The translations under genes and the position numbers were made by a program. Of a stretch of DNA of 64,000 nucleotides, positions 176-57,141 are shown piece after piece (position 1 is the stretch's first letter; each line of letters opens with the position of its first letter). This DNA comes from Octopus sinensis (taxonomy: Eukaryota): contig NC_043021.1 of assembly GCF_006345805.1 (NCBI RefSeq), positions 10,974,001 through 11,038,000 on the forward strand, given 5' to 3'. The notes beneath the pieces were generated by a model, which worked only from the letters and a program-made list of their open reading frames with translations, did no database searches and was not told the DNA's origin.

Positions 176-193
176 ACATATATATATATATAT

Positions 194-572: not shown

Positions 573-611
573 ATACACATACACACACACATACAAACAC
601 ACACACGCACA

Positions 612-787: not shown

Positions 788-933
788 TGTGTAAAGTTAC
801 TTAAAGTTTTTGTTACACATTGCGCTATAAAAACCATATTTACGAAATAAGATAGTATTAAAAAAATATCCTAAAATCAAACCTAAAATACACAAATAAA
901 CATCAAAATTATTCAAAGCCTTATATATATATA

Positions 934-1920: not shown

Positions 1921-1929
1921 GAAAATAGT

Positions 1930-2221
1930 AAAAAGTGAAAAAACTACAGAAGGCTTGTTTTAAAAGGTTAAAAAATATATTTTTGAGTCAATATGTCTGA
2001 AGAATGTTATCAATTTTTTTCTTAGAATGACATAGTTTAGAAGAAATGACTGGTTTCGCGTTCAGCTTTTCAAATTTTTGAAAAGCTGAACGCGAAACCG
2101 GTCATTTCTTCTAAACTATGTCATTGTAAGAAAAAAATTGATAACATTCTTCAGACATATTGACTCAAAAATATATTTTTTAACCTTTTAAAACAAGCCT
2201 TCTGTAGTTTTTTCACTTTTT
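1930..2221. repeat. ~290-bp fold-back palindrome, probably Penelope-like inverted terminus
   Basis: Arms 1930-2074 and 2077-2221 are reverse complements with about 2 mismatches; contains GAAACCGGTC, a hammerhead stem-III half motif. Confidence 0.85.
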
Positions 2222-2269
2222 TCTATATATTCAACCACATACTTTCACAAACCAACTTTCTCATCTATA

Positions 2270-3086: not shown

Positions 3087-3360
3087 CGAACGTCTTTTTA
3101 ATAATAGTAGTAATAAAATCATATTTCTTAGAGAACAGGATCAAATTTATTGCACCACATAAATTCAGTAGGGATTGTACATAACAAATGGAAATGAAAG
3201 TAATTATACTGAAAGTCTATATTCCCTTACGTCAGACAGACATAAGAAAAAAGACGCCTATTACTTTATTCATGTCCAGAAAACGCATTGTCGTCTAAAT
3301 ATTAGTTCAACAGTTATGTCACATATACACGTGTTGCAACTCATAATACAGAGATGTCTT

Positions 3361-6300
3361 GAAAGAAATTGGATGCCATTATTTTTTAAGGATGTGGCTG
3401 TGTGGTAAGAAGCTTGCTTCCCGACCACATGGTTCCGGGTTCAGTCCCATTGCGGGACAACTTTGGCCAGGTGTCTTCTACTATAGCCGTGGGGCCGACC
3501 AAAGCACTGTGGGTGAATTTGATAGATGGAAGCTGAATGAAAGTGGACGCCCTTGTTTTTGAACGATGTGGCTGTGTGGTAAGAAGCTTCTTTCCCGATC
3601 ACATGGTTCCGGGTTCGGTCCCATTGCGGGACAACTTTGGCAAGGTTTCTTCTACTATAGCCATGGGGCCGACCAAAGCACTGTGGGTGAATTTGATAGA
3701 TGGAAGCTGAATGAAAGTGGACGCCCTTGTTTTTGAACGATGTGGCTGTGTGGTAAGAAGCTTCTTTCCCGATCACATGGTTCCGGGTTCGGTCCCATTG
3801 CGGGACAACTTTGGCAAGGTTTCTTCTACTATAGCCGTGGGGCCGACCAAAGCACTGTGGGTGAATTTGATAGATGGAAGCTGAAAGAAAATTGACGCCC
3901 TTGTTTTTGGACGATGTGGCTGTGTGGTAAGAAGCTTCTTTCCCGATCACATGGTTCTGGGTTCGGTCCCATTGCGGGACAACTTTGGCCAGGTGTCTTC
4001 TACTATAGCCGTGGGGCCGACCAAAGCACTGTGGGTGAATTTGATAGATGGAAGCTGAAAGAAAATTGACGCCATTGTTTTTGAACGATGTGGCTGTGTG
4101 GTAAGAAGCTTCTTCCCGATCACATGGTTCTGGGTTCGGTCCCATTGCGGGACAACTTTGGCCAGGTGTCTTCTACTATAGCCGTGGGGCCGACCAAAGC
4201 ACTGTGGGTGAATTTGATAGATGGAAGCTGAATGAAAGTGGACGCCCTTGTTTTTGAACGATGTGGCTGTGTGGTAAGAAGCTTCTTTCCCGATCACATG
4301 GTTCCGGGTTCGGTCCCATTGCGGGACAACTTTGGCCAGGTGTCTTCTACTATAGCCGTGGGGCCGACCAAAGCACTGTGGGTGAATTTGATAGATGGAA
4401 GCTGAAAGAAAATTGACGCCATTGTTTTTGAACGATGTGGCTGTGTGGTAAGAAGCTTCTTTCCCGATCACATGGTTCTGGTTCGGTCCCATTGCGGGAC
4501 AACTTTGGCCAGGTGTCTTCTACTATAGCCGTGGGCCGACCAAAGCACTGTGGGTGAATTTGATAGATGGAAGCTGAATGAAAGTGGACGCCCTTGTTTT
4601 TGAACGATGTGGCTGTGTGGTAAGAAGCCTGCTTCCCGATCACATGGTTCCGGGTTCGGCCCCATTGCGGGACAACTTTGGCCAGGTGTCTTCTACTATA
4701 GCCGTGGGGCCGACCAAAGCACTGTGGGTGAATTTGATAGATGGAAGCTGAATGAAAGTGGACGCCCTTGTTTTTGAACGATGTGGCTGTGTGGTAAGAA
4801 GCTTCTTTCCCGATCACATGGTTCCGGGTTCAATCCCATTGCGGGACAACTTTGGCCAGGTGTCTTCTACTATAGCCGTGGGGCCGACCAAAGCACTGTG
4901 GGTGAATTTGATAGATGGAAGCTGAAAGAAAATTGACGCCATTGTTTTTGAACGATGTGGCTGTGTGGTAAGAAGCTTCTTTCCCGATCACATGGTTCTG
5001 GGTTCGGTCCCATTGCGGGACAACTTTGGCCAGGTGTCTTCTACTATAGCCGTGGGGCCGACCAAAGCACTGTGGGTGAATTTGATAGATGGAAGCTGAA
5101 TGAAAGTGGACGCCCTTGTTTTTGAACGATGTGGCTGTGTGGTAAGAAGCTTCTTTCCCGATCACATGGTTCCAGGTTCGGTCCCATTGCGGGACAACTT
5201 TGGCCAGGTGTCTTCTACTATAGCCGTGGGGCCGACCAAAGCACTGTGGGTGAATGTGATAGATGGAAGCTGAAAGAAAATTGACGCCATTGTTTTTGAA
5301 TGATGTGGCTGTGTGGTAAGAAGCTTCTTTCCCGATCACATGGTTCCAGGTTCGGTCCCATTGCGGGACAACTTTGGCCAGGTGTCTTCTACTATAGCCG
5401 TGGGGCCGACCAAAGCACTGTGGGTGAATTTGATAGATGGAAGCTGAATGAAAGTGGACGCCCTTGTTTTTGAACGATGTGGCTGTGTGGTAAGAAGCTT
5501 CTTTCCCGATCACATGGTTCCGGGTTCGGTCCCATTGCGGGACAACTTTGGCCAGGTGTCTTCTACTATAGCCGTGGGGCCGACCAAAGCACTGTGGGTG
5601 AATTGATAGATGGAAGCTGAAAGAAAATTGACGCCATTGTTTTTGAACGATGTGGCTGTGTGGTAAGAAGCTTCTTTCCCGATCACATGGTTCTGGGTTC
5701 GGTCCCATTGCGGGACAACTTTGGCCAGGTGTCTTCTACTATAGCCGTGGGGCCGACCAAAGCACTGTGGGTGAATTTGATAGATGGAAGCTGAATGAAA
5801 GTGGACGCCCTTGTTTTTGAACGATGTGGCTGTGTGGTAAGAAGCTTCTTTCCCGATCACATGGTTCCGGGTTCGGTCCCATTGCGGGACAACTTTGGCC
5901 AGGTGCCTTCTACTATAGCCGTGGGGCCGAGCAAAGCACTGTGGGTGAATTTGATAGATGGAAGCTGAAAGAAAATTGACGCCATTGTTTTTGAACGATG
6001 TGGCTGTGTGGTAAGAAGCTTCTTTCCCGATCACATGGTTCTGGGTTCGGTCCCATTGCGGGACAACTTTAGCCAGGTGTCTTCTACTATAGCCGTGGGG
6101 CCGACCAAAGCACTGTGGGTGAATTTGATAGATGGAAGCTGAATGAAAGTGGACGCCCTTGTTTTTGAACGATGTGGCTGTGTGGTAAGAAGCCTGCTTC
6201 CTGATCACATGGTTCCGGGTTCGGTCCCATTGCGGGACAACTTTGGCCAGTTGTCTTCTACTATAGCCGTGGGGCCGACCAAAGCACTGTGGGTGAATTT

Positions 6301-9300
6301 GATAGATGGAAGCTGAAAGAAAATTGACGCCATTGTTTTTGAACGATGTGGCTGTGTGGTAAGAAGCTTCTTTCCCGATCACATGGTTCTGGGTTCGGTC
6401 CCATTGCGGGACAACTTTGGCCAGGTGTCTTCTACTATAGCCGTGGGGCCGACCAAAGCACTGTGGGTGAATTTGATAGATGGAAGCTGAATGAAAGTGG
6501 ACGCCATTGTTTTTGAACGATGTGGCTGTGTGGTAAGAAGCCTGCTTCCTGATCACATGGTTCCGGGTTCGGTCCCATTGCGGGACAACTTTGGCCAGGT
6601 GTCTTCTACTATAGCCGTGGGACCGACCAAAGCACTGTGGGTGAATTTGATAGATGGAAGCTGAATGAAAGTGGATGCCATTGTTTTTGAACGATGTGGC
6701 TGTGTGGTAAGAAGCTTCTTTCCCGATCACATGGTTCCGGGTTCGGTCCCATTGTGGGACAACTTTGGCCAGGTGTCTTCTACTATAGCCGTGGGGCCGA
6801 CCAAAGCACTGTGGGTGAATTTGATAGATGGAAGCTGAAAGAAAATTGACGCCCTTGTTTTTGAACGATGTGGCTGTGTGGTAAGAAGCTTCTTTCCCGA
6901 TCACATGGTTCCGGGTTCGGTCCCATTGCGGGACAACTTTGGCCAGGTGTCTTCTACTATAGCCGTGGGGCCGACCAAAGCACTGTGGGTGAATTTGATA
7001 GATGGAAGCTGAAAGAAAATTGACGCCCTTGTTTTTGAACGATGTGGCTGTGTGGTAAGAAGCTTCTTTCCCGATCACATGGTTCCGGGTTCGGTCCCAT
7101 TGCGGGACAACTTTGGCCAGGTGTCTTCTACTATAGCCGTGGGGCCGACCAAAGCACTGTGGGTGAATTTGATAGATGGAAGCTGAAAGAAAATTGATGC
7201 CATTGTTTTTGAACGATGTGGCTGTGTGGTAAGAAGCTTCTTTCCCGATCACATGGTTCTGGGTTCGGTCCCATTGCGGGACAACTTTGGCAAGGTTTCT
7301 TCTACTATAGCCATGGGGCCGACCAAAGCACTGTGGGTGAATTTGATAGATGGAAGCTGAATGAAAGTGGACGCCCTTGTTTTTGAACGATGTGGCTGTG
7401 TGGTAAGAAGCTTCTTCCCGATCACATGGTTCCGGTTCGGTCCCATTGCGGGACAACTTTGGCCAGGGGTCTTCTACTATAGCCGTGGGGCCGACCAAAG
7501 CACTGTGGGTGAATTTGATAGATGGAAGCTGAAAGAAAATTGACGCCATTGTTTTTGAACGATGTGGCTGTGTGGTAAGAAGCTTCTTTCCCGATCACAT
7601 GGTTCTGGATTCGGTCCCATTGCGGGACAACTTTGGCCAGGTGTCTTCTACTATAGCCGTGGGCCGACCAAAGCACTGTGGGTGAATTTGATAGATGGAA
7701 GCTGAATGAAAGTGGACGCCCTGTTTTTGAACGATGTGGCTGTGTGGTAAGAAGCCTGCTTCCTGATCACATGGTTCTGGGTTCGGTCCCATTGCGGGAC
7801 AACTTTGGCCAGGTGTCTTCTACTATAGCCGTGGGGCCGACCAAAGCACTGTGGGTGAATTTGATAGATGGAAGCTGAATGAAAGTGGACGCCCTTGTTT
7901 TTGAACGATGTGGCTGTGTGGTAAGAAGCTTCTTTCCCGATCACATGGTTCTGGGTTCGGTCCCATTGCGGGACAACTTTGGCAAGGTTTCTTCTACTAT
8001 AGCCGTGGGGCCGACCAAAGCACTGTGGGTGAATTTGATAGATGGAAGCTGAAAGAAAATTGACGCCATTGTTTTTGAACGATGTGGCTGTGTGGTAAGA
8101 AGCTTCTTTCCCGATCACATGGTTCTGGGTTCGGTCCCATTGCGGGACAACTTTGGCCAGGTGCCTTCTACTATAGCCGTGGGGCCGACCAAAGCACTGT
8201 GCGTGAATTTGATAGATGGAAGCTGAATGAAAGTGGACGCCATTGTTTTTGAACGATGTGGCTGTGTGGTAAGAAGCTTCTTTCCCGATCACATGGTTCT
8301 GGGTTCGGTCCCATTGCGGGACAACTTTGGCCAGGTGTCTTCTACTATAGCCGTGGGGCCGACCAAAGCACTGTGGGTGAATTTGATAGATGGAAGCTGA
8401 ATGAAAGTGGACGCCATTGTTTTTGAACGATGTGGCTGCGTGGTAAGAAGCTTCTTTCCCGATCACATGGTTCTGGGTTCGGTCCCATTGCGGGACAACT
8501 TTGGCAAGGTTTCTTCTACTATAGCCGTGGGGCCGACCAAAGCACTGTGGGTGAATTTGATAGATGGAAGCTGAATGAAAGTGGACGCCAATGTTTTTGA
8601 ACGATGTGGCTGTGTGGTAAGAAGCTTCTTTCCCGATCACATGGTTCTGGGTTCGGTCCCATTGCGGGACAACTTTGGCAAGGTTTCTTCTACTATAGCC
8701 GTGGGGCCGACCAAAGCACTGTGGGTGAATTTGATAGATGGAAGCTGAATGAAAGTGGACGCCAATGTTTTTGAACGATGTGGCTGTGTGGTAAGAAGCT
8801 TCTTTCCCGATCACATGGTTCTGGGTTCGGTCCCATTGCGGGACAACTTTGGCCAGGTGTCTTCTACTATAGCCGTGGGGCCGACCAAAGCACTGTGGGT
8901 GAATTTGATAGATGGAAGCTGAATGAAAGTGGACGCCCTTGTTTTTGAACGATGTGGCTGTGTGGTAAGAAGCCTGCTTCCTGATCACATGGTTCCGGGT
9001 TCGGTCCCATTGCGGGACAACTTTGGCCAGGTGTCTTCTACTATAGCCGTGGGGCCGACCAAGGCACTGTGGGTGAATTTGATAGATGGAAGCTGAATGA
9101 AAGTGACGCCCTTGTTTTTGAACGATGTGGCTGTGTGGTAAGAAGCCTGCTTCCTGATCACATGGTTCTGGTTCGGTCCCATTGCGGGACAACTTTGGCC
9201 AGTGTCTTCTACTATAGCTGGGGCCGACCAAAGCACTGTGGGTGAATTTGATAGATGGAAGCTGAATGAAAGTGGACGCCCTTGTTTTTGAACGATGTGG

Positions 9301-12300
9301 CTGTGTGGTAAGAAGCCTGCTTCCTGATCACATGGTTCTGGGTTCGGTCCCATTGCGGGACAACTTTGGCAAGGTTTCTTCTACTATAGCCGTGGGGCCG
9401 ACCAAAGCACTGTGGGTGAATTTGATAGATGGAAGCTGAAAGAAAATTGACGCCCTTGTTTTTGAACGATGTGGCTGTGTGGTAAGAAGCCTGCTTCCTG
9501 ATCACATGGTTCCGGGTTCGGTCCCATTGCGGGACAACTTTGGCCAGGTGTCTTCTACTATAGCCGTGGGGCCGACCAAAGCACTGTGGGTGAATTTGAT
9601 AGATGGAAGCTGAATGAAAGTGGACGCCCTTGTTTTTGAACGATGTGGCTGTGTGGTAAGAAGCCTGCTTCCTGATCACATGGTTCTGGGTTCGGTCCCA
9701 CTGCGGGACAACTTTGGCCAGGTGTCTTCTACTATAGCCGTGGGGCCGACCAAAGCACTGTGGGTGAATTTGATAGATGGAAGCTGAATGAAAGTGGACG
9801 CCCTTGTTTTTGAACGATGTGGCTGTGTGGTAAGAAGCCTGCTTCCTGATCACATGGTTCTGGGTTCGGTCCCATTGCGGGACAACTTTGGCCAGGTGTC
9901 TTCTACTATAGCCGTGGGGCCGACCAAAGCACTGTGGGTGAATTTGATAGATGGAAGCTGAAAGAAAATTGACGCCCTTGTTTTTGAACGATGTGGCTGT
10001 GTGGTAAGAAGCTTCTTTCCCGATCACATGGTTCCGGTTCAATCCCATTGCGGGACAACTTTGGCCAGGTGTCTTCTACTATACTAGCCGTGGGGCCGAC
10101 CAAAGCACTGTGGGTGAATTTGATAGATGGAAGCTGAAGGAAAATTGACGCCATTGTTTTTGAACGATGTGGCTGTGTGGTAAGAAGCTTCTTTCCCGAT
10201 CACATGGTTCTGGGTTCGGTCCCATTGCGGGACAACTTTGGCCAGGTGTCTTCTACTATAGCCGTGGGGCCGACCAAAGCACTGTGGGTGAATTTGATAG
10301 ATGGAAGCTGAATGAAAGTGGACGCCCTTGTTTTTGAACGATGTGGCTGTGTGGTAAGAAGCTTCTTTCCCGATCACATGGTTCCAGGTTCGGTCCCATT
10401 GCGGGACAACTTTGGCCAGGTGTCTTCTCTACTATAGCCGTGGGGCCGACCAAAGCACTGTGGGTGAATGTGATAGATGGAAGCTGAAAGAAAATTGACG
10501 CCATTGTTTTTGAATGATGTGGCTGTGTGGTAAGAAGCTTCTTTCCCGATCACATGGTTCTGGGTTCGGTCCCATTGCGGGACAACTTTGGCCAGGTGTC
10601 TTCTACTATAGCCGTGGGGCCGACCAAAGCACTGTGGGTGAATTTGATAGATGGAAGCTGAATGAAAGTGGACGCCCTTGTTTTTGAACGATGTGGCTGT
10701 GTGGTAAGAAGCCTGCTTCCTGATCACATGGTTCTGGGTTCGGTCCCATTGCGGGACAACTTTGGCCAGGTGTCTTCTACTATAGCCGTGGGGCCGACCA
10801 AAGCACTGTGGGTGAATTTGATAGATGGAAGCTGAATGAAAGTGGACGCCCTTGTTTTTGAACGATGTGGCTGTGTGGTAAGAAGCTTCTTTCCCGATCA
10901 CATGGTTCTGGGTTCGGTCCCATTGCGGGACAACTTTGGCAAGGTTTCTTCTACTATAGCCGTGGGGCCGACCAAAGCACTGTGGGTGAATTTGATAGAT
11001 GGAAGCTGAAAGAAAATTGACGCCATTGTTTTTGAACGATGTGGCTGTGTGGTAAGAAGCTTCTTTCCCGATCACATGGTTCTGGGTTCGGTCCCATTGC
11101 GGGACAACTTTGGCCAGGTTCTTCTACTATAGCCGTGGGCCGACCAAAGCACTGTGGGTGAATTTGATAGATGGAAGCTGAATGAAAGTGGACGCCATTG
11201 TTTTTGAACGATGTGGCTGTGTGGTAAGAAGCTTCTTTCCCGATCACATGGTTCTGGGTTCGGTCCCATTGCGGGACAACTTTGGCCAGGTGTCTTCTAC
11301 TATAGCCGTGGGGCCGACCAAAGCACTGTGGGTGAATTTGATAGATGGAAGCTGAATGAAAGTGGACGCCATTGTTTTTGAACGATGTGGCTGTGTGGTA
11401 AGAAGCGTCTTTCCCGATCACATGGTTCTGGGTTCGGTCCCATTGCGGGACAACTTTGGCCAGGTGTCTTCTACTATAGCCGTGGGGCCGACCAAAGCAC
11501 TGTGGGTGAATTTGATAGATGGAAGCTGAATGAAAGTGGACGCCCTTGTTTTTGAACGATGTGGCTGTGTGGTAAGAAGCCTGCTTCCTGATCACATGGT
11601 TCCGGGTTCGGTCCCATTGCGGGACAACTTTGGCCAGGTGTCTTCTACTATAGCCGTGGGGCCGACCAAAGCACTGTGGGTGAATTTGATAGATGGAAGC
11701 TGAATGAAAGTGGACGCCCTTGTTTTTGAACGATGTGGCTGTGTGGTAAGAAGCCTGCTTCCTGATCACATGGTTCTGGGTTCGGTCCCATTGCGGGACA
11801 ACTTTGGCCAGGTGTCTTCTACTATAGCCGTGGGGCCGACCAAAGCACTGTGGGTGAATTTGATAGATGGAAGCTGAATGAAAGTGGACGCCCTTGTTTT
11901 TGAACGATATGGCTGTGTGGTAAGAAGCCTGCTTCCTGATCACATGGTTCTGGGTTCGGTCCCATTGCGGGACAACTTTGGCAAGGTTTCTTCTACTATA
12001 GCCGTGGGGCCGACCAAAGCACTGTGGGTGAATTTGATAGATGGAAGCTGAAAGAAAATTGACGCCCTTGTTTTTGAACGATGTGGCTGTGTGGTAAGAA
12101 ACCTGCTTCCTGATCACATGGTTCCGGGTTCGGTCCCATTGCGGGACAACTTTGGCCAGGTGTCTTCTACTATAGCCGTGGGGCCGACCAAAGCACTGTG
12201 GGTGAATTTGATGGATGGAAGCTGAATGAAAGTGGACGCCCTTGTTTTTGAACGATGTGCCTGTGTGGTAAGAAGCCTGCTTCCTGATCACATGGTTCTG

Positions 12301-15300
12301 GGTTCGGTCCCACTGCGGGACAACTTTGGCCAGGTGTCTTCTACTATAGCCGTGGGGCCGACCAAAGCACTGTGGGTGAATTTGATAGATGGAAGCTGAA
12401 TGAAAGTGGACGCCCTTGTTTTTGAACGATGTGGCTGTGTGGTAAGAAGCTTCTTTCCCGATCACATGGTTCCAGGTTCGGTCCCATTGCGGGACAACTT
12501 TGGCCAGGTGTCTTCTACTATAGCCGTGGGGCCGACCAAAGCACTGTGGGTGAATGTGATAGATGGAAGCTGAAAGAAAATTGACGCCATTGTTTTTGAA
12601 TGATGTGGCTGTGTGGTAAGATGCTTCTTTCCCGATCACATGGTTCTGGGTTCGGTCCCATTGCGGGACAACTTTGGCCAGGTGTCTTCTACTATAGCCG
12701 TGGGGCCGACCAAAGCACTGTGGGTGAATTTGATAGATGGAAGCTGAAAGAAAATTGACGCCCTTGTTTTTGAACGATGTGGCTGTGTGGTAAGAAGCCT
12801 GCTTCCTGATCACATGGTTCCGGGTTCGGTCCCATTGCGGGACAACTTTGGCCAGGTGTCTTCTACTATAGCCGTGGGGCCGACCAAAGCACTGTGGGTG
12901 AATTTGATAGATGGAAGCTGAAAGAAAATTGACGCCATTGTTTTTGAACGATGTGGCTGTGTGGTAAGAAGCTTCTTTCCCGATCACATGGTTCTGGGTT
13001 CGGTCCCATTGCGGGACAACTTTGGCCAGGTGTCTTCTACTATAGCCGTGGGGCCGACCAAAGCACTGTGGGTGAATTTGATAGATGGAAGCTGAATGAA
13101 AGTGGACGCCCTTGTTTTTGAATGATGTGGCTGTGTGGTAAGAAGCTTCTTTCCCGATCACATGGTTCCGGGTTCGGTCCCATTGCGGGACAACTTTGGC
13201 CAGGTGTCTTCTACTATAGCCGTGGGGCCGACCAAAGCACTGTGGGTGAATTTGATAGATGGAAGCTGAAAGAAAATTGACGCCATTGTTTCTGAACGAT
13301 GTGGCTGTGTGGTAAGAAGCTTCTTTCCCGATCACATGGTTCCGGGTTCGGTCCCATTGCGGGACAACTTTGGCCAGGTGTCTTCTACTATAGCCGTGGG
13401 GCCGACCAAAGCACTGTGGGTGAATTTGATAGATGGAAGCTGAAAGAAAATTGACGCCATTGTTTTTGAACGATGTGGCTGTGTGGTAAGAAGCTTCTTT
13501 CCCGATCACATGGTTCTGGGTTCGGTCCCATTGCGGGACAACTTTGGCCAGGTGTCTTCTACTATAGCCGTGGGGCCGACCAAGCACTGTGGGTGAATTT
13601 GATAGATGGAAGCTGAAAGAAAATTGACGCCATTGTTTTTGAACGATGTGGCTGTGTGGTAAGAAGCTTCTTTCCCGATCACATGGTTCTGGGTTCGGTC
13701 CCATTGCGGGACAACTTTGGCCAGGTGTCTTCTACTATAGCCGTGGGGCCGACCAAAGCACTGTGGGTGAATTTGATAGATGGAAGCTGAATGAAAGTGG
13801 ACGCCCTTGTTTTTGAACGATGTGGCTGTGTGGTAAGAAGCTTCTTTCCGATCACATGGTTCCGGGTTCGGTCCCATTGCGGGACAACTTTGGCCAGGTG
13901 TCTTCTACTATAGCCGTGGGGCCGACCAAAGCACTGTGGGTGAATTTGATAGATGGAAGCTGAAAGAAAATTGACGCCATTGTTTTTGAACGATGTGGCT
14001 GTGTGGTAAGAAGCTTCTTTCCCGATCACATGGTTCTGGGTTCGGTCCCATTGCGGGACAACTTTGGCCAGGTGTCTTCTACTATAGCCGTGGGGCCGAC
14101 CAAAGCACTGTGGGTGAATTGATAGATGGAAGCTGAATGAAAGTGGACGCCCTTGTTTTTGAACGATATGGCTGTGTGGTAAGAAGCCTGCTTCCTGATC
14201 ACATGGTTCTGGGTTCGGTCCCATTGCGGGACAACATTGGCCAGGTGTCTTCTACTATAGCCGTGGGGCCGACCAAAGCACTGTGGGTGAATTTGATAGA
14301 TGGAAGCTGAATGAAAGTGGACGCCCTTGTTTTTGAACGATGTGGCTGTGTGGTAAGAAGCTTCTTTCCCGATCACATGGTTCTGGGTTCGGTCCCATTG
14401 CGGGACAACTTTGGCAAGGTTTCTTCTACTATAGCCGTGGGGCCGACCAAAGCACTGTGGGTGAATTTGATAGATGGAAGCTGAAAGAAAATTGACGCCA
14501 TTGTTTTTGTACGATGTGGCTGTGTGGTAAGAAGCTTCTTTCCCGATCACATGGTTCTGGGTTCGGTCCCATTGCGGGACAACTTTCGCCAGGTGTCTTC
14601 TACTATAGCCGTGGGCCGACCAAAGCACTGTGGGTGAATTTGATAGATGGAAGCTGAATGAAAGTGGACGCCATTGTTTTTGAACGATGTGGCTGTGTGG
14701 TAAGAAGCTTCTTTCCCGATCACATGGTTCTGGGTTCGGTCCCATTGCGGGACAACTTTGGCCAGGTGTCTTCTACTATAGCCGTGGGGCCGACCAAAGC
14801 ACTGTGGGTGAATTTGATAGATGGAAGCTGAATGAAAGTGGACGCCATTGTTTTTGAACGATGTGGCTGTGTGGTAAGAAGCTTCTTTCCGATCACATGG
14901 TTCTGGGTTCGGTCCCATTGCGGGACAACTTTGGCAAGGTTTCTTCTACTATAGCCGTGGGGCCGACCAAAGCACTGTGGGTGAATTTGATAGATGGAAG
15001 CTGAATGAAAGTGGACGCCAATGTTTTTGAACGATGTGGCTGTGTGGTAAGAAGCTTCTTTCTCGATCACATGGTTCTGGCGGGTTCGGTCCCATTGCGG
15101 GACAACTTTGGCAAGGTTTCTTCTACTATAGCCGTGGGGCCGACCAAAGCACTGTGGGTGAATTTGATAGATGGAAGCTGAATGAAAGTGGACGCCAATG
15201 TTTTTGAACGATGTGGCTGTGTGGTAAGAAGCTTCTTTCTCATCACATGGTTCTGGGTTCGGTCCCATTGCGGGACAACTTTGGCCAGGTGTCTTCTACT

Positions 15301-18300
15301 ATAGCCGTGGGGCCGACCAAAGCACTGTGGGTGAATTTGATAGATGGAAGCTGAATGAAAGTGGACGCCCTTGTTTTTGAACGATGTGGCTGTGTGGTAA
15401 GAAGCCTGCTTCCTGATCACATGGTTCCGGGTTCGGTCCCATTGCGGGACAACTTTGGCCAGGTGTCTTCTACTATAGCCGTGGGGCCGACCAAGGCACT
15501 GTGGGTGAATTTGATAGATGGAAGCTGAATGAAAGTGGACGCCCTTGTTTTTGAACGATGTGGCTGTGTGGTAAGAAGCCTGCTTCCTGATCACATGGTT
15601 CTGGGTTCGGTCCCATTGCGGGACAACTTTGGCAGGTGTCTTCTACTATAGCCGTGGGGCCGACCAAAGCACTGTGGGTGAATTTGATAGATGGAAGCTG
15701 AATGAAAGTGGACGCCCTTGTTTTTGAACGATGTGGCTGTGTGGTAAGAAGCCTGCTTCCTGATCACATGGTTCTGGGTTCGGTCCCATTGCGGGACAAC
15801 TTTGGCAAGGTTTCTTCTACTATAGCCGTGGGGCCGACCAAAGCACTGTGGGTGAATTTGATAGATGGAAGCTGAAAGAAAATTGACGCCATTGTTTCTG
15901 AACGATGTGGCTGTGTGGTAAGAGCTTCTTTCCCGATCACATGGTTCCGGGTTCGGTCCCATTGCGGGACAACTTTGGCCAGGTGTCTTCTACTATAGCC
16001 GTGGGGCCGACCAAAGCACTGTGGGTGAATTTGATAGATGGAAGCTGAAAGAAAATTGACGCCATTGTTTTTGAACGATGTGGCTGTGTGGTAAGAAGCT
16101 TCTTTCCCGATCACATGGTTCTGGGTTCGGTCCCATTGCGGGACAACTTTGGCCAGGTGTCTTCTACTATAGCCGTGGGGCCGACCAAAGCACTGTGGGT
16201 GAATTTGATAGATGGAAGCTGAAAGAAAATTGACGCCATTGTTTTTGAACGATGTGGCTGTGTGGTAAGAAGCTTCTTTCCCGATCACATGGTTCTGGGT
16301 TCGGTCCCATTGCGGGACAACTTTGGCCAGGTGTCTTCTACTATAGCCGTGGGGCCGACCAAAGCACTGTGGGTGAATTTGATAGATGGAAGCTGAATGA
16401 AAGTGGACGCCCTTGTTTTTGAACGATGTGGCTGTGTGGTAAGAAGCTTCTTTCCCGATCACATGGTTCCGGGTTCGGTCCCATTGCGGGACAACTTTGG
16501 CCAGGTGTCTTCTACTATAGCCGTGGGGCCGACCAAAGCACTGTGGGTGAATTTGATAGATGGAAGCTGAAAGAAAATTGACGCCATTGTTTTTGAACGA
16601 TGTGGCTGTGTGGTAAGAAGCTTTTCCCGATCACATGGTTCCGGGTTCGGTCCCATTGCGGGACAACTTTGGCCAGGTGTCTTCTACTATAGCCGTGGGG
16701 CCGACCAAAGCACTGTGGGTGAATTTGATAGATGGAAGCTGAATGAAAGTGGACGCCCTTGTTTTTGAACGATATGGCTGTGTGGTAAGAAGCCTGCTTC
16801 CTGATCACATGGTTCTGGGTTCGGTCCCATTGCGGGACAACTTTGGCCAGGTGTCTTCTACTATAGCCGTGGGGCCGACCAAAGCACTGTGGGTGAATTT
16901 GATAGATGGAAGCTGAATGAAAGTGGACGCCCTTGTTTTTGAACGATGTGGCTGTGTGGTAAGAAGCTTCTTCCCGATCACATGGTTCTGGGTTCGGTCC
17001 CATTGCGGGACAACTTTGGCAAGGTTTCTTCTACTATAGCCGTGGGGCCGACCAAAGCACTGTGGGTGAATTTGATAGATGGAAGCTGAAAAAAAGACGC
17101 CATTGTTTTTGTACGATGTGGCTGTGTGGTAAGAAGCTTCTTTCCCGATCACATGGTTCTGGGTTCGGTCCCATTGCGGGACAACTTTGGCCAGGTGTCT
17201 TCTACTATAGCCGTGGGGCCGACCAAAGCACTGTGGGTGAATTTGATAGATGGAAGCTGAATGAAAGTGGACGCCATTGTTTTTGAACGATGTGGCTGTG
17301 TGGTAAGAAGCTTCTTTCCCGATCACATGGTTCTGGGTTCGGTCCCATTGCGGGACAACTTTGGCCAGGTGTCTTCTACTATAGCCGTGGGGCCGACCAA
17401 AGCACTGTGGGTGAATTTGATAGATGGAAGCTGAATGAAAGTGGACGCCATTGTTTTTGAACGATGTGGCTGTGTGGTAAGAAGCTTCTTTCCCGATCAC
17501 ATGGTTCTGGGTTCGGTCCCATTGCGGGACAACTTTGCAAGGTTTCTTCTACTATAGCCGTGGGGCCGACCAAAGCACTGTGGGTGAATTTGATAGATGG
17601 AAGCTGAATGAAAGTGGACGCCAATGTTTTTGAACGATGTGGCTGTGTGGTAAGAAGCTTCTTTCTCAATCACATGGTTCTGGGTTCGGTCCCATTGCGG
17701 GACAACTTTGGCCAGGTGTCTCTACTATAGCCGTGGGGCCGACCAAAGCACTGTGGGTGAATTTGATAGATGGAAGCTGAATGAAAGTGGACGCCCTTGT
17801 TTTTGAACGATGTGGCTGTGTGGTAAGAAGCCTGCTTCCTGATCACATGGTTCCGGGTTCGGTCCCATTGCGGGACAACTTTGGCCAGGTGTCTTCTACT
17901 ATAGCCGTGGGGCCGACCAAGGCACTGTGGGTGAATTTGATAGATGGAAGCTGAATGAAAGTGGACGCCCTTGTTTTTGAACGATGTGGCTGTGTGGTAA
18001 GAAGCCTGCTTCCTGATCACATGGTTCTGGGTTCGGTCCCATTGCGGGACAACTTTGGCAAGGTGTCTTCTACTATAGCCGTGGGGCCGACCAAAGCACT
18101 GTGGGTGAATTTGATAGATGGAAGCTGAATGAAAGTGGACGCCCTTGTTTTTGAACGATGTGGCTGTGTGGTAAGAAGCCTGCTTCCTGATCACATGGTT
18201 CTGGGTTCGGTCCCATTGCGGGACAACTTTGGCAAGGTTTCTTCTACTATAGCCGTGGGCCGACCAAGCACTGTGGGTGAATTTGATAGATGGAAGCTGA

Positions 18301-21300
18301 AAGAAAATTGACGCCCTTGTTTTTGAACGATGTGGCTGTGTGGTAAGAAGCCTGCTTCCTGATCACATGGTTCGGGTTCGGTCCCATTGCGGGACAACTT
18401 TGGCCAGGTGTCTTCTACTATAGCCGTGGGGCCGACCAAAGCACTGTGGGTGAATTTGATAGATGGAAGCTGAATGAAAGTGGACGCCCTTGTTTTTTGA
18501 ACGATGTGGCTGTGTGGTAAGAAGCCTGCTTCCTGATCACATGGTTCTGGGTTCGGTCCCATTGCGGGACAACTTTGGCAAGGTTTCTTCTACTATAGCC
18601 GTGGGGCCGACCAAAGCACTGTGGGTGAATTTGATAGATGGAAGCTGAAAGAAAATTGACGCCCTTGTTTTTGAACGATGTGGCTGTGTGTGTAAGAAGC
18701 CTGCTTCCTGATCACATGGTTCCGGGTTCGGTCCCATTGCGGGACAACTTTGGCCAGGTGTCTTCTACTATAGCCGTGGGGCCGACCAAAGCACTGTGGT
18801 GAATTTGATAGATGGAGCTGAATGAAAGTGGACGCCCTTGTTTTTGAACGATGTGGCTGTGTGGTAAGAAGCCTGCTTCCTGATCACATGGTTCTGGGTC
18901 GGTCCCACTGCGGGACAACTTTGGCCAGGTGTCTTCTACTATAGCCGTGGGGCCGACCAAAGCACTGTGGGTGAATTTGATAGATGGAAGCTGAATGAAA
19001 GTGGACGCCCTTGTTTTTGAACGATGTGGCTGTGTGGTAAGAAGCCTGCTTCCTGATCACATGGTTCTGGGTCGGTCCCATTGCGGGACAACTTTGGCCA
19101 GGTGTCTTCTACTATAGCCGTGGGGCCGACCAAAGCACTGTGGGTGAATTTGATAGATGGAAGCTGAATGAAAGTGGACGCCTTGTTTTTGAACGATGTG
19201 GCTGTGTGGTAAGAAGCTTCTTTCCCGATCACATGGTTCTGGGTTCGGTCCCATTGCGGGACAACTTTGGCAAGGTTTCTTCTACTATAGCCGTGGGGCC
19301 GACCAAAGCACTGTGGGTGAATTTGATAGATGGAAGCTGAAAGAAAATTGACGCCATTGTTTTTGTACGATGTGGCTGTGTGGTAAGAAGCTTCTTTCCC
19401 GATCACATGGTTCTGGGTTCGGTCCCATTGCGGGACAACTTTGGCCAGGTGTCTTCTACTATAGCCGTGGGGCCGACCAAAGCACTGTGGGTGAATTTGA
19501 TAGATGGAAGCTGAATGAAAGTGGACGCCATTGTTTTTGAACGATGTGGCTGTGTGGTAAGAAGCTTCTTTCCCGATCACATGGTTTGGGTTCGGTCCCA
19601 TTGCGGGACAACTTTGGCCAGGTGTCTTCTACTATAGCCGTGGGGCCGACCAACACTGTGGGTGAATTTGATAGATGGAAGCTGAATGAAAGTGGACGCC
19701 ATTGTTTTTGAACGATGTGGCTGTGTGGTAAGAAGCTTCTTCCCGATCACATGGTTCTGGGTTCGGTCCCATTGCGGGACAACTTTGGCAAGGTTTCTTC
19801 TACTATAGCCGTGGGGCCGACCAAAGCATTGTGGGTGAATTGATAGATGGAAGCTGAATGAAAGTGGACGCCAATGTTTTTGAACGATGTGGCTGTGTGG
19901 TAAGAAGCTTCTTCCCATCACATGGTTCTGGGTTCGGTCCCATTGCGGGACAACTTTGGCCAGGTGTCTTCTACTATAGCCGTGGGGCCGACCAAAGCAC
20001 TGTGGGTGAATTTGATAGATGGAAGCTGAATGAAAGTGGACGCCCTTGTTTTTGAACGATGTGGCTGTGTGGTAAGAAGCCTGCTTCCTGATCACATGGT
20101 TCCGGGTTCGGTCCCATTGCGGGACAACTTTGGCCAGGTGTCTTCTACTATAGCCGTGGGGCCGACCAAGCACGTGGGTGAATTTGATAGATGGAAGCTG
20201 AATGAAAGTGGACGCCCTTGTTTTTGAACGATGTGGCTGTGTGGTAAGAAGCCTGCTTCCTGATCACATGGTTCTGGGTTCGGTCCCATTGCGGGACAAC
20301 TTTGGCCAGGTGTCTTCTACTATAGCCGTGGGGCCGACCAAAGCACTGTGGGGGAATTTGATAGATGGAAGCTGAATGAAAGTGGACGCCCTTGTTTTTG
20401 AACGATGTGGCTGTGTGGTAAGAAGCCTGCTTCCTGATCACATGGTTCTGGGTTCGGTCCCATTGCGGGCCAACTTTGGCAAGGTTTCTTCTACTATAGC
20501 CGTGGGCCGACCAAAGCACTGTGGGTGAATTTGATAGATGGAAGCTGAAAGAAAATTGACGCCCTTGTTTTGAACGATGTGGCTGTGTGGTAAGAAGCTG
20601 CTTCCTGATCACATGGTTCCGGGTTCGGTCCCATTGCGGGACAACTTTGGCCAGGTGTCTTCTACTATAGCCGTGGGGCCGACCAAAGCACTGTGGGTGA
20701 ATTTGATAGATGGAAGCTGAATGAAAGTGGACGCCCTTGTTTTTGAACGATGTGGCTGTGTGGTAAGAAGCCTGCTTCCTGATCACATGGTTCCGGGTTC
20801 GGTCCCATTGCGGGACAACTTTGGCCAGGTGTCTTCTACTATAGCCGTGGGGCCGACCAAGGCACTGTGGGTGAATTTGATAGATGGAAGCTGAATGAAA
20901 GTTGACGCCCTTGTTTTTGAACGATGTGGCTGTGTGGTAAGAAGCTGCTTCCGATCACATGGTTCTGGGTTCGGTCCCATTGCGGGACAACTTTGGCCAG
21001 GTGTCTTCTACTATAGCCGTGGGGCCGACCAAAGCACTGTGGGTGAATTTGATAGATGGAAGCTGAATGAAAGTGGACGCCCTTGTTTTGAACGATGTGG
21101 CTGTGTGGTAAGAAGCCTGCTTCCTGATCACATGGTTCTGGGTTCGGTCCCATTGCGGGACAACTTGGCAAGGTTCTTCTTCTACTATAGCGTGGGGCCG
21201 ACCAAAGCACTGTGGGTGAATTGATAGATGGAAGCTGAAAGAAAATTGACGCCCTTGTTTTGAACGATGTGGCTGTGTGGTAAGAAGCCTGCTTCCTGAT

Positions 21301-24300
21301 CACATGGTTCCGGGTTCGGTCCCATTGCGGGACAACTTTGGCCAGGTGTCTTCTACTATAGCCGTGGGGCCGACCAAAGCACTGTGGGTGAATTTGATAG
21401 ATGGAAGCTGAAAGGTGGACGCCCTTGTTTTTGAACGATGTGGCTGTGTGGTAAGAAGCCTGCTTCCTGATCACATGGTTCTGGGTTCGGTCCCACTGCG
21501 GGACAACTTTGGCCAGGTGTCTTCTACTATAGCCGTGGGCCGACCAAAGCACTGTGGGTGAATTTGATAGATGGAAGCTGAATGAAAGTGGACGCCCTTG
21601 TTTTTGAACGATGTGGCTGTGTGGTAAGAAGCCTGCTTCCTGATCACATGGTTCTGGGTTCGGTCCCATTGCGGGACAACTTTGGCCAGGTGTCTTCTAC
21701 TATAGCCGTGGGGCCGACCAAAGCACTGTGGGTGAATTTGATAGATGGAAGCTGAAAGAAAATTGACGCCCTTGTTTTTGAACTATGTGGCTGTGTGGTA
21801 AGAAGCTTCTTTCCCGATCACATGGTTCCGGGTTCAATCCCATTGCGGGACAACTTTGGCCAGGTGTCTTCTACTATAGCCGTGGGGCCGACCAAAGCAC
21901 TGTGGGTGAATTTGATAGATGGAAGCTGAAAGAAAATTGACGCCATTGTTTTTGAACGATGTGGCTGTGTGGTAAGAAGCTTCTTTCCCGATCACATGGT
22001 TCTGGGTTCGGTCCCATTGCGGGACAACTTTGGCCAGGTGTCTTCTACTATAGGCGTGGGGCCGACCAAAGCACTGTGGGTGAATTTGATAGATGGAAGC
22101 TGAATGAAAGTGGACGCCCTTCTTTTTGAACGATGTGGCTGTGTGGTAAGAAGCTTCTTTCCCGATCACATGGTTCCAGGTTCGGTCCCATTGCGGGACA
22201 ACTTTGGCCAGGTGTCTTCTACTATAGCCGTGGGGCCGACCAAAGCATTGTGGGTGAATGTGATAGATGGAAGCTGAAAGAAAATTCACGCCATTGTTTT
22301 TGAATGATGTGGCTGTGGGTAAGAAGCTTCTTTCCCGATCACATGGTTTGGGTTCGGTCCCATTGCGGGACAACTTTGGCCAGGTGTCTCTACTATAGCC
22401 GTGGGGCCGACCCAAGCACTGTGGGTGAACTTGATAGATGGAAGCTGAATGAAAGTGGACGCCCTTGTTTTTGAACGATGTGGCTGTGTGGTAAGAAGCC
22501 TGCTTCCTGATCACATGGTTCTGGGTTCGGTCCCATTGCAGGACAACTTTGGCCAGGTGTCTTCTACTATAGCCGTGGGGCCGACCAAAGCACTGTGGGT
22601 GAATTTGATAGATGGAAGCTGAATGAAAGTGGACGCCCTTGTTTTTGAACGATGTGGCTGTGTGGTAAGAAGCTTCTTTCCCGATCACATGGTTCTGGGT
22701 TCGGTCCATTGCGGGACAACTTTGGCAAGGTTTCTTCTACTATAGCCGTGGGGCCGACACCAAAGCACTGTGGGTGAATTTGATAGATGGAAGCTGAAAG
22801 AAAATTGACGCCATTGTTTTTGAACGATGTGGCTGTGTGGTAAGAAGCTTCTTTCCCGATCACATGGTTCTGGGTTCGGTCCCATTGCGGGACAACTTTG
22901 GCCAGGTGTCTTCTACTATAGCCGTGGGGCCGACCAAAGCACTGTGGGTGAATTTGATAGATGGAAGCTGAATGAAAGTGGACGCCATTGTTTTTGAACG
23001 ATGTGGCTGGTGGTAAGAAGCTTCTTCCCGATCACATGGTTCTGGGTTCGGTCCCATTGCGGGACAACTTTGGCCAGGTGTCTTCTACTATAGCCGTGGG
23101 GCCGACCAAAGCACTGTGGGTGAATTTGATAGATGGAAGCTGAATGAAAGTGGACGCCATTGTTTTTGAACGATGTGGCTGTGTGGTAAGAAGCTTCTTT
23201 CCCGATCACATGGTTCTGGGTTCGGTCCCATTGCGGGACAACTTTGGCAAGGTTTCTTCTACTATAGCCGTGGGGCCGACCAAAGCACTGTGGGTGAATT
23301 GATAGATGGAAGCTGAATGAAAGTGGACGCAATGTTTTTGAACGATGTGGCTGTGTGGTAAGAAGCTTCTTTCCCGATCACATGGTTCTGGGTTCGGTCC
23401 CATTGCGGGACAACTTTGGCCAGGTGTCTTCTACTATAGCCGTGGGGCCGACCAAAGCACTGTGGGTGAATTTGATAGATGGAAGCTGAATGAAAGTGGA
23501 CGCCCTGTTTTTTGAACGATGTGGCTGTGTGGTAAGAAGCCTGCTTCCTGATCACATGGTTCCGGGTTCGGTCCCATTGCGGGACAACTTTGGCCAGGTG
23601 TCTTCTACTATAGCCGTGGGGCCGACCAAAGCACTGTGGGTGAATTTGATAGATGGAAGCTGAATGAAAGTGGACGCCCTTGTTTTTGAACGATGTGGCT
23701 GTGTGGTAAGAAGCTGCTTCCTGATCACATGGTTCTGGGTTCGGTCCCATTGCGGGACAACTTTGGCCAGGTGTCTTCTACTATAGCCGTGGGGCCGACC
23801 AAAGCACTGTGGGTGAATTTGATAGATGGAAGCTGAATGAAAGTGGACGCCCTTGTTTTTGAACGATGTGGCTGTGTGGTAAGAAGCTTCTTTCCTTCCG
23901 ATCACATGGTTCTGGGTTCGGTCCCATTGCGGGACAACTTTGGCAAGGTTTCTTCTACTATAGCCGTGGGGCCGACCAAAGCACTGTGGGTGAATTTGAT
24001 AGATGGAAGCTGAATGAAAGTGGACGCCATGTTTTTGAACGATGTGGCTGTGTGGTAAGAAGCTTCTTCCCGATCACATGGTTCTGGGTTCGGTCCCATT
24101 GCGGGACAACTTTGGCCAGGTTCTTCTACTATAGCCGTGGGGCCGACCAAAGCACTGTGGGTGAATTTGATAGATGGAAGCTGAATGAAAGTGGACGCCC
24201 TTGTTTTTGAACGATGTGGCTGTGTGGTAAGAAGCCTGCTTCCTGATCACATGGTTCCGGTTCGGTCCCATTGCGGGACAACTTTGGCCAGGTGTCTTCT

Positions 24301-25750
24301 ACTATAGCCGTGGGGCCGACCAAAGCACTGTGGGTGAATTTAATGATAGATGGAAGCTGAATGAAAGTGGACGCCCTTGTTTTTGAACGATGTGGCTGTG
24401 TGGTAAGAAGCCTGCTTCCTGATCACATGGTTCTGGGTTCGGTCCCATTGCGGGACAACTTTGGCCAGGTGTCTCTACTATAGCCGTGGGGCCGACCAAA
24501 GCACTGTGGGTGAATTTGATAGATGGAAGCTGAATGAAAGTGGACGCCCTTGTTTTTGAACGATGTGGCTGTGTGGTAAGAAGCCTGCTTCCTGATCACA
24601 TGGTTCTGGGTTCGGTCCCATTGCGGGACAACTTTGGCAAGGTTTCTTCTACTATAGCCGTGGGGCCGACCAAAGCACTGTGGGTGAATTTGATAGATGG
24701 AAGCTGAAAGAAAATTGACGCCCTTGTTTTTGAACGATGTGGCTGTGTGGTAAGAAGCCTGCTTCCTGATCACATGGTTCTGGGTTCGGTCCCATTGCGG
24801 GACAACTTTGGCCAGGTGTCTTCTACTATAGCCGTGGGGCCGACCAAAGCACTGTGGGTGAATTTGATAGATGGAAGCTGAATGAAAGTGGACGCCCTTG
24901 TTTTTGAACGATGTGGCTGTGTGGTAAGAAGCCTGCTTCCTGATCACATGGTTCTGGGTTCGGTCCCATTGCGGGACAACTTTGGCCAGGTGTCTTCTAC
25001 TATAGCCGTGGGGCCGACCAAAGCACTGTGGGTGAATTTGATAGATGGAAGCTGAAGAAAATTGACGCCCTGTTTTTTGTGATGTGGCTGTGTGGTAAGA
25101 AGCCTGCTTCCTGATCACATGGTTCCGGGTTCGGTCCCATTGCGGGACAACTTTGGCCAGGTGTCTTCTACTATAGCCGTGGGGCCGACCAAAGCACTGT
25201 GGGTGAATTTGATAGATGGAAGCTGAAAGAAAATTGACGCCCTTGTTTTTGAACGATGTGGCTGTGTGGTAAGAAGCCTGCTTCCTGATCACATGGTTCC
25301 GGGTTCGGTCCCATTGCGGGACAACTTTGGCAAGGTTTCTTCTACTATAGCCGTGGGGCCGACCAAAGCACTGTGGGTGAATTTGATAGATGGAAGCTGA
25401 AAGAAAATTGACGCCATTGTTTTTGAACGATGTGGCTGTGTGGTAAGAAGCTTCTTTCCCGATCACATGGTTCCGGGTTCGGTCCCATTGCGGGACAACT
25501 TTGGCAAGGTTTCTTCTACTATAGCCATGGGGCCGACCAAAGCACTGTGGGTGAATTTGATAGATGGAAGCTGAATGAAAGTGGACGCCCTTGTTTTTGA
25601 ATGATGTGGCTGTGTGGTAAGAAGCTTGCTTCCCGACCACATGGTTCCGGGGGCGGTCCCACTGCGTGACACCTTGGGCAGGTGTCTTCTACTATAGCCA
25701 TGGGGCTGACCGAAGCACTGTGGGTGAATTTGATAGATGGAAGCTGAAAA
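3361..25750 (+). repeat. SINE-derived satellite: ~128 tandem copies of a 174-bp unit
   Basis: GATGTGGCTGTGTGGTAAG recurs at 3391, 3565, 3739 ... 25603 (22212 bp / 174 = 127.7); unit = SINE A head and body to GGAAGCTGAA plus a spacer containing TTTTT. Confidence 0.98.
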
Positions 25751-25775
25751 AAGCTCATCATATTTATGTGTGTGT

Positions 25776-26160
25776 GTGGCTGTGTGGTAAGAAACTTGCT
25801 TTCCGACCACATGGTTCCAGGTTCAGTACCACTGCGTAACACCTTGGGTAGGTGTCTTCTACTATAGCCGTGGGGCCGACCAAAGCATTGTGGGTGAATT
25901 TCATAGACGGAAGATGAAAGAAGCTCATTGTATTTATGTGGGTGTGTGCGTTAGTGTGTTTGTGTGTCCCACCATCGTTTGACGACTGATGGTGTATTTG
26001 CGTCCCTGTGACTTAGCGGTTCAGCAAAAGAAACGACTGAATAAGTATCAGGCTTTAAAAACAAAATGCAAGTGCTGGGGTCGATTCATTCAACTAAAAT
26101 GCTTCAAGGAGGTGCTCCAGTATGGCCGCAGTCTAATGACTGAAGGAAGTAAATGATAAC
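25776..26160 (+). mobile_element. SINE family A, full-length older variant directly after the array (progenitor-like)
   Basis: Shares array-type bases (GCCGTGGGGCCGACC, GTGGGTGAATTT) and continues into the normal 3' half ...GGTGCTCCAGTATGGCCGCAGTCTAATGACTGAA. Confidence 0.85.
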
Positions 26161-26169
26161 AGATAGAAG

Positions 26170-26913: not shown

Positions 26914-26919
26914 AGAAGT

Positions 26920-30440: not shown

Positions 30441-30637
30441 AGGCGCGATAGGAGTGGCTGTGTGGTAAGTAGCTTGCTTACCAATGACATGGTTCCGTGT
30501 TCATTCCCACTGCATGGCACCTTGGGCAAGTGTCTTCTACTATAGCCTCGGGCTGACCAAAGTCTTGTGAGTGGATTTGGTAGACGGAAGCTGAAAGAAG
30601 CCCGTCGTATATATGTTTGTATATAAATATATAAACA

Positions 30638-57139: not shown

Positions 57140-57141
<2 letters not shown>

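What the first reader, a model, noticed from the sequence alone, without database searches (positions are those of the whole stretch)
3358..3570. The birth junction of the satellite appears to be preserved: 8-bp microhomology between flank and SINE body
Seen: left flank TGAAAGAAATTGGATGCCATTATTTTTTAAGGAT (3360-3393) matches the unit spacer TGAAAGAAAATTGACGCCATTGTTTTTGAACGAT at 28 of 34 positions, and SINE A contains GC-TGAAAGAA-G exactly where units break off (e.g. ~30590). Inference: slippage or unequal exchange across TGAAAGAA duplicated flank + SINE head, defining the 174-bp unit in situ.
Basis: partly seen in the sequence, partly recalled or inferred. Interest (0 to 1): 0.7.

Follow-up and report, generated by a model that had tools for sequence, protein, structure and literature searches.

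The report
Satellite array still shows its birthplace
A 22-kb run of about 130 near-identical repeats is built from the front end of a common jumping element plus a short piece of neighbouring DNA, and both of its ends keep older sequence, so it likely arose on this spot by an accidental duplication across a shared 8-letter word, a known process caught unusually clearly.

Summary
The left flank (3360-3393) matches unit spacers at 27-28/34; the best match outside the array is 22/34. Similarity stops dead at 3360, exactly where units leave the SINE sequence. TGAAAGAA is the longest word shared between the SINE and 300 nt of flank. The right edge supplies the other half: the last head runs on into native SINE body. 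The two terminal heads, 22 kb apart, are identical over 46 nt, and 0 of 127 interior units carry their first-40-nt haplotype. Their differences from the interior mostly match the dispersed-SINE state, so they look ancestral, not eroded. Best reading (0.82): in-situ microhomology-mediated duplication of a 173-bp segment, then expansion and homogenisation. Corrections: the right-hand 8-mer is now 7/8; about one third of junctions keep the word; an older SINE-head duplication adjoins the array; slippage versus unequal exchange cannot be told apart. The genome-wide and orthologue tests could not be run. This is a new member of known kinds (SINE-derived satellites; Haber-Louis duplication), probably from a cephalopod.

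The parts
3360..3367 (+). Left microhomology arm TGAAAGAA in unique flank; left limit of similarity to the unit
3368..3388 (+). Non-SINE flank captured into the unit as spacer (16/21 to a type-A spacer); holds a T6 run that is T5 in 120 of 128 spacers
3389..3533 (+). First SINE head (u1; anchor at 3394). Founder state to head position 50, array state from position 57. Keeps AGG at the 5' end like 6 of 7 dispersed heads
3534..25571 (+). 127 interior units of about 174 bp (34-nt spacer + 140-nt head); two spacer types, two head types, multi-unit block duplications; mean pairwise 4.8 substitutions per head
25572..25744 (+). Last array unit (u129): array-type spacer, then a 139-nt founder-state head lacking the array's 1-nt insertion
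25745..25752 (+). Right microhomology arm, now TGAAAAAA (7/8)
25753..25775 (+). Native SINE body stub ending in a (TG)n run joined to the next head; joint of an older head duplication, simplest reading 4-nt TGTG overlap
25776..26160 (+). Full-length local SINE copy (u130), 13.6% from u129 in the head; intact 8-mer at 25915-25922; no target-site duplication seen; a second SINE family follows directly
30454..30599 (+).

Best explanation
The array is a SINE-derived satellite that was likely born at this locus, when a segment of about 173 bp running from TGAAAGAA in the upstream flank to the same word inside a resident SINE was duplicated head-to-tail across that 8-bp microhomology. Shown: unit anatomy, both boundaries, founder-like edge units, block duplications inside. 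Inferred steps: (1) an older SINE copy sat here and had already duplicated its head once through its (TG)n tract (u129/u130, 13.6% apart); (2) a replication template switch or microhomology-mediated repair joined the SINE 8-mer back to the flank 8-mer, creating the spacer+head unit; (3) unequal exchange, often several units at a time, grew the array to about 130 copies and fixed new mutations in the interior, while the two ends, held by unique neighbours, kept founder sequence. It most likely has no function. It is self-amplifying DNA that cannot readily move by the SINE route, because each spacer carries a T5 run that would end Pol III transcripts and the units lack the SINE 3' tail.
For: Left boundary at the exact SINE/spacer switch, with background identity upstream. 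The 8-mer is the longest SINE-flank shared word; 9 of 104,755 joints reach 8. Right edge continues into native body and a full SINE. u1 and u129 differ only at head positions 47, 48, 50 of the first 56, and 0 of 127 interior units match them over positions 1-40. Of their differences from the interior majority, 5 of 5 (u1) and 8 of 12 (u129) equal the dispersed-SINE state; at head positions 32, 62, 68, 73 no interior unit has that state while u129 has it at all four. u1 switches once from founder to array state. The flank is intermediate between the two spacer types at columns 5, 10, 12. Tree of 21 heads (6 dispersed, 3 edge, 12 of 127 interior): local clade 98/95, u1 at the base of the interior units with branch length 0. 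Longest repeated block 12 units at lag 68, against at most 6 in 300 permutations. Mechanism precedent: Haber and Louis as summarised in PMC6947457, PMC3389668, PMC13167724.
Against: No orthologue, second haplotype or genome-wide search was available, so no one-copy allele was seen. Right arm is 7/8. Two of the six 'local' characters, and the shared CpG decay at head 132, also occur in older partial copies at 742 and 43401, so part of the local clade signal may be subfamily; four head characters remain, judged against about 12 copies. The binomial p values are inflated because three of the sites are polymorphic in the interior. The 5' AGG polarity is one site with an ambiguous 1-nt alignment. 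A second SINE family shows the same tandem joint at two unrelated loci of this window, so recurring or mobile tandem units exist in this genome. One review holds that 5-10 bp repeats cannot start long-unit satellites (PMC6947457).
Confidence: 0.82

Rival explanations
1. Imported array: the unit arose elsewhere and inserted here (circle reintegration or microhomology repair), possibly at a 5'-truncated SINE beginning at the 8-mer; the 'flank' is an old edge unit.
For: Satellites do spread this way, with 4-7 bp microhomology at junctions (PMC7403614 passages). Squamate SINE satellites occur at many loci with an extended terminal unit (PMC10702118). A 5'-truncated copy at 57381 starts 4 nt before the same 8-mer. 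A weak spacer-like motif lies at 3244-3267 (19/24; 4 of 1000 shuffles). A second SINE family repeats one tandem joint at two loci.
Against: The left boundary would have to fall within about 12 of 174 positions by chance (about 7%, my arithmetic). Edges are founder-state, not randomly decayed. The array shares characters with the resident u130. Homologous integration into a resident SINE would explain founder-state heads but not a flank that matches the spacer. 3271-3359 shows no head similarity (500 of 1000 shuffles as good), and the 3244 motif is out of register and matched by 2 of 148 real windows.
Confidence: 0.06
2. Double retroposition: a second, 3'-truncated SINE head was reverse-transcribed into the site just upstream of the resident copy, primed at the 8-mer, so the spacer is a 29-34 bp target-site duplication; unequal exchange then amplified it.
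For: Gives the same order of parts. TSD1-(SINE-TSD1)n arrays of 3'-truncated SINEs are described in a bivalve (PMC11481361 passages). SINEs cluster and nest in this window.
Against: No clear target-site duplication at five dispersed copies (longest shared words 6-8 nt of low complexity, none abutting). No spacer copy after the last SINE (best 19/34). Both halves of the array head share characters with local u129/u130, including position 30 in the founder-state part of u1.
Confidence: 0.06
3. This locus is a segmental copy of the true birth locus, carried with its flanks. The anatomy still records the birth, but not the place.
For: A faithful copy would pass every test run here.
Against: Nothing in the window points to it; 3087-3400 has no match elsewhere in the window (best E 0.68). 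It needs an extra event.
Confidence: 0.04
4. The array or its edges are an assembly artefact.
For: Indels rise from 0.18 to 1.44 bases per unit along the array, and 58 of 71 deleted bases fall in homopolymer columns, as long-read error would give. Copy number and block order may be inexact.
Against: Substitution variants form consistent haplotypes. Error would not make both ends revert to the dispersed-SINE state or match each other across 22 kb.
Confidence: 0.02

Closest known systems
SINE-derived satellites (sSats) of squamates, especially sSat3Gja2 (Vassetzky et al. 2023, PMC10702118; parts 1-4 of 5 read plus a term search; supplements not read)
   Same: Unit is part of a SINE and shorter than it; sSat3Gja2 is the SINE 5' part plus about 30 nt of unknown origin; a longer terminal unit reaches the SINE end; long loci are homogeneous and have subvariants.
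   Different: Here the extra sequence can be traced to the flank of the same locus and an 8-bp overlap marks the joint; the main text of that paper has 0 hits for 'microhomology' or 'direct repeat'. Host is probably a cephalopod, not a reptile. Multi-locus spread and subtelomeric position are unknown here.
Haber-Louis model / microhomology-mediated tandem duplication (PMC13167724 part 1 of 7; PMC3389668 passages; PMC6947457 section 9; the 1998 paper itself not seen)
   Same: A single-copy segment bounded by 5-10 bp direct repeats is duplicated and then expands, leaving n units plus one extra arm.
   Different: Unit is 173-174 bp and reached about 130 copies; one arm is in a SINE, the other in unique flank. 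PMC6947457 doubts this route for long units but notes a similar proposal for maize repeats.
TSD1-(SINE-TSD1)n arrays of Scapharca broughtonii (PMC11481361, passages)
   Same: Mollusc; 3'-truncated SINE copies separated by a constant piece of flank.
   Different: Those arrays have 4-15 units and, by their formula, end in the TSD; this one ends in native SINE body with no spacer copy downstream.
CRM1TR/CRM4TR of maize (PMC3648361, passages)
   Same: Tandem repeats born from one parental retroelement at one or two loci by illegitimate recombination.
   Different: LTR-element parent, longer units, and no single-step short direct repeats were found there.
Pol III-type tandem repeats OAX, PolIII/TAN, Rana/polIII (seen only as described in PMC10702118 and PMC12054243 passages)
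   Same: Tandem units with a tRNA-like segment.
   Different: Their SINE parents are unconfirmed; here the parent is abundant in the same window. Transcription here is untested.

Membership tests
SINE-derived satellite (sSat) | Tandem unit derived from part of a dispersed element and shorter than it | tested here: met
   140 of 174 nt match 12 dispersed segments at 70-84%; full element about 385-410 nt
SINE-derived satellite (sSat) | At least four middle monomers, homogeneous | tested here: met
   127 interior units, 95% matches
SINE-derived satellite (sSat) | Longer terminal unit reaching a SINE terminus | tested here: met
   u129 enters native body; u130 runs to the 3' end near 26160
SINE-derived satellite (sSat) | Parent is a tRNA-derived SINE | tested here: inconclusive
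   Short, dispersed, non-coding, with A/B-box-like motifs (consensus recalled). No tRNA at default ARAGORN or in two Rfam scans. Relaxed ARAGORN: 5 of 6 heads against 85 of 600 shuffles at -ps70, but 0 of 6 against 19 of 600 at -ps80. Family name and partner LINE not determined.
SINE-derived satellite (sSat) | Alternating subvariants (seen in up to 25% of long snake loci) | tested here: inconclusive
   A/B alternation visible in u4-u19; overall 13 adjacent AA pairs against 15.8 expected
SINE-derived satellite (sSat) | Many loci per genome; subtelomeric tendency | not testable with these tools
   No eukaryotic genome collection
Microhomology-mediated tandem duplication (Haber-Louis) | Duplicated segment bounded by 5-10 bp direct repeats at both array ends | tested here: met
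   3360-3367 and 25745-25752 (7/8; 8/8 in u130 and in 9 dispersed SINE occurrences)
Microhomology-mediated tandem duplication (Haber-Louis) | Similarity ends at the arms | tested here: met
Microhomology-mediated tandem duplication (Haber-Louis) | A one-copy ancestral allele exists | not testable with these tools
   Needs orthologues or haplotypes
TSD-(SINE-TSD)n array | Array closes with a copy of the target-site duplication | tested here: not met
   Best spacer match in 25751-27000 is 19/34; only a 5-nt word near the SINE 3' end
Reinserted satellite array | Truncated first and last units against unrelated DNA on both sides | tested here: not met
   Right neighbour is the native continuation of the SINE; both edges are founder-state

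The most novel reading that the evidence does not exclude
Flank capture built a new gene family in one step: the duplication placed a T5 terminator from the flank behind a SINE's Pol III promoter, so the array is about 130 self-terminating Pol III cassettes making a roughly 170-nt RNA. The same flank capture would then explain the 'sequence of unknown origin' in reptile SINE satellites and offer a route to OAX-type Pol III satellites. Support is thin: T5 or T6 in 123 of 128 spacers and T4 in only 1 of 129 heads; 4 of 71 rare substitutions in the two boxes against 9 expected, p 0.045, confounded by sequencing error. Against: the predicted RNA folds no better than shuffles (z 0.08), the B box is non-canonical in 119 of 130 units (consensus recalled), and the T run was already in the flank.
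Probability: 0.1. Interest if true: 0.7.

Novelty: new member of a known kind. Interest (0 to 1): 0.42.

Why it matters
How a satellite's first repeat forms is usually hidden by later homogenisation. Here both edges keep the founder, so the first event can be read to the base and tested against orthologues. It suggests a concrete, checkable origin for the extra 14-44 nt 'of unknown origin' reported in reptile SINE satellites, and is a case of an 8-bp overlap seeding a satellite-sized unit, which one review doubts. Two searches (listings only) showed no paper on an octopus SINE-derived satellite, but the library lacks most subscription papers. The mechanism and the architecture are each already described, and no function is shown, so the value is that of a clean natural example.

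Tried and rejected
Eroded units further left: in-register identity is background; 3271-3359 does not align to a head better than shuffles. The motif at 3244-3267 was considered as a relic spacer and left unexplained. Extending the left arm with the nearby AGATG needs a 2-nt gap and was not counted. For the older u129/u130 joint a 12-of-13 match was considered, but it needs four added TG units; the 4-nt reading needs none. Target-site duplications: none convincing. tRNA identity: ARAGORN and Rfam gave nothing firm. RNA structure: none above shuffles. More dispersed copies were sought as host contamination in bacterial and archaeal genomes: 0 matches, uninformative. A paper search for a SINE head motif found 0 papers, so the family was not named. 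Spacer against head divergence (6/34 against 14/147) does not differ significantly (p 0.22). Uniform rolling-circle growth was not favoured, because repeated blocks occur at many lags (13-88). Supplementary figures of PMC10702118 were not read and may show flank matches or microhomology.

Full report
Setting. The window is repeat-rich animal DNA. TRF finds a 174-bp array at 3360-25922, 130 copies, 95% matches. A LINE reverse transcriptase at 54580-55554 has, among 120 listed of 969 hits, only two with species names: Acanthosepion pharaonis (53%) and Argonauta hians (62% over 57% of the query). A cephalopod source is therefore inferred; that the repeats look octopus-like is my recall and was not tested. 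I split the array into 130 heads: u1, 127 interior units, u129 and u130. Each unit is 34 nt of spacer plus 140 nt matching the 5' part of an element that has 12 dispersed matches in the window at 70-84%. I call it a SINE from its anatomy; tRNA origin is only weakly supported.

Observation. The flank at 3360-3393 matches the quoted spacer at 28/34 and the commonest spacer at 27/34; outside the array the best is 22/34. The 21 nt that are not SINE match 16/21 (p 4e-6). Upstream of 3360 identity is background: 7/30 and 40/174 in register. The 8-mer is where dispersed copies pass into their body. A shared 8-mer somewhere is common (823 of 1000 shuffles), but this is the longest shared word and sits at the joint; 9 of 104,755 possible joints reach 8. 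Corrections: 82 of 128 junctions carry T at column 5, including the first one at 3534; the right arm reads TGAAAAAA; the last 5 nt or so of the spacer are probably SINE 5' end, where the flank keeps AGG like 6 of 7 dispersed heads and 121 of 128 units have C.

The right edge. In-situ duplication predicts that the last head continues into native body. It does: u129 ends at 25752, runs through body to a (TG)n tract, and joins a full-length copy, u130 (25776 to about 26160). u129 and u130 differ at 20 of 147 sites and share two body changes absent from 8 of 8 dispersed bodies, so they are likely an older local head duplication; the simplest joint is a 4-nt TGTG overlap at the end of the tract. 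u129 lacks a 1-nt insertion carried by the array, so the birth unit was likely 173 bp.

Ancestral or eroded edges. Erosion predicts random differences; birth predicts older states. u1 differs from the interior majority at 5 head sites and all 5 equal the dispersed consensus; u129 differs at 12, and 8 equal it. Three of those sites are polymorphic in the interior, so the binomial values are inflated. The strict result: at positions 32, 62, 68, 73 no interior unit has the dispersed state, u129 has it at all four and u1 at 32. u1 switches once, between head positions 50 and 57, from founder to array state. u1 and u129 are identical over positions 1-46, and 0 of 127 interior units match them over 1-40. 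The flank is intermediate between the two spacer types. In a tree of 21 heads (12 of 127 interior units, chosen as every third distinct 140-nt sequence) the local copies group at 98/95 and u1 sits at the base of the interior units. Against: two of six locally shared characters, and one CpG decay, recur in older partial copies at 742 and 43401, so some signal may be subfamily.

Growth. There are 19 repeated blocks of 5 or more units and one of 12 units at lag 68; permutations give at most 1 and 6. This fits unequal exchange in multi-unit steps (inference). Indels rise along the array and favour homopolymers, so exact copy number is uncertain.

Mechanism. Shown: anatomy, boundaries, polarity, blocks. 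Inferred: a replication template switch or microhomology-mediated repair between the two 8-mers, 173 bp apart, made the first two copies; exchange and conversion did the rest. Slippage, sister exchange and a locally reinserted circle give the same edges. A T5 run in 120 of 128 spacers, with T4 in only 1 of 129 heads, would stop Pol III in every unit (established knowledge), and the units lack the 3' tail, so spread by retroposition is unlikely. Confidence 0.82.

Rivals. Import (0.06) has precedent (PMC7403614) and local hints: a 5'-truncated copy starting 4 nt before the 8-mer, a weak motif at 3244-3267, and a second SINE family with one joint at two loci. It needs a roughly 7% coincidence at the left boundary plus founder-state edges plus kinship with u130. 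Double retroposition with a long target-site duplication (0.06) resembles bivalve arrays but finds no such duplications here. A segmental copy of the birth locus (0.04) cannot be excluded. Artefact (0.02) does not explain the polarity.

Comparison with what is known. The architecture is that of squamate sSats; sSat3Gja2 is a SINE 5' part plus about 30 nt of unknown origin (PMC10702118; parts 1-4 of 5, supplements not read). The mechanism is Haber-Louis or microhomology-mediated tandem duplication (PMC13167724 part 1; PMC3389668 passages; PMC6947457 passages and section 9). Also consulted as passages: PMC4824008 (names octopus OR1 as a CORE-SINE; no sequence test possible), PMC12628747, PMC12054243, PMC3648361. 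It works like an MTD-born satellite and meets the testable defining features of both kinds. The tRNA-SINE status of the parent is inconclusive, and the one-copy allele and genome-wide distribution could not be tested.

Verdict. It is a new member of a known kind, unusually well preserved; interest 0.42. The boldest open reading, a cluster of self-terminating Pol III cassettes created by flank capture, has probability about 0.1.

Noticed in passing
window 3244-3267: Spacer-like motif 119 nt upstream of the flank spacer, 19/24 to a type-A spacer (4 of 1000 shuffles, but 2 of 148 real windows score as high; 64 of 1000 against the flank itself). Out of register, no head behind it; unexplained.
   Followed up: partly
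window 26563-26913 and 46381-47386: Tandem runs of a second SINE family (184-bp period; 1.9 and 5.8 copies) with the same tail-to-internal joint at two unrelated loci.
   Followed up: partly
window 57130-57811 (-): Full SINE followed by (TA)n and a 5'-truncated copy starting 4 nt before the same 8-mer; the full copy also has a perfect 29-bp internal tandem duplication at 57456-57516.
   Followed up: no
window 1-790 (-): Three SINE copies of different ages stacked tail-to-head through microsatellite tracts.
   Followed up: partly
window 51540-56700 (+): LINE with an ORF1-like frame (564 aa) and endonuclease/RT/zinc-finger pieces in several frames; RT relatives named from cephalopods. L1/Tx1-like is my recall; not tested as the SINE's partner.
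   Followed up: partly
window 1921-2222: Near-perfect palindrome of about 300 bp, MITE-like, seen by eye.
   Followed up: no
window 44614-45230: 159-bp tandem repeat (2.7 copies) next to an AT-rich palindrome centred near 45143.
   Followed up: no
window 34203-34610 (-): 135-aa frame resembling a pogo/Tigger transposase DNA-binding region (resemblance recalled, not searched).
   Followed up: no
window 34709-35220 (-): SINE copy split in its head by an insertion of about 130 bp that begins with a (CAT)n tract.
   Followed up: no
window 3534-25571: Indel density rises eightfold from left to right along the array, mostly homopolymer deletions, suggesting uneven consensus polishing.
   Followed up: partly
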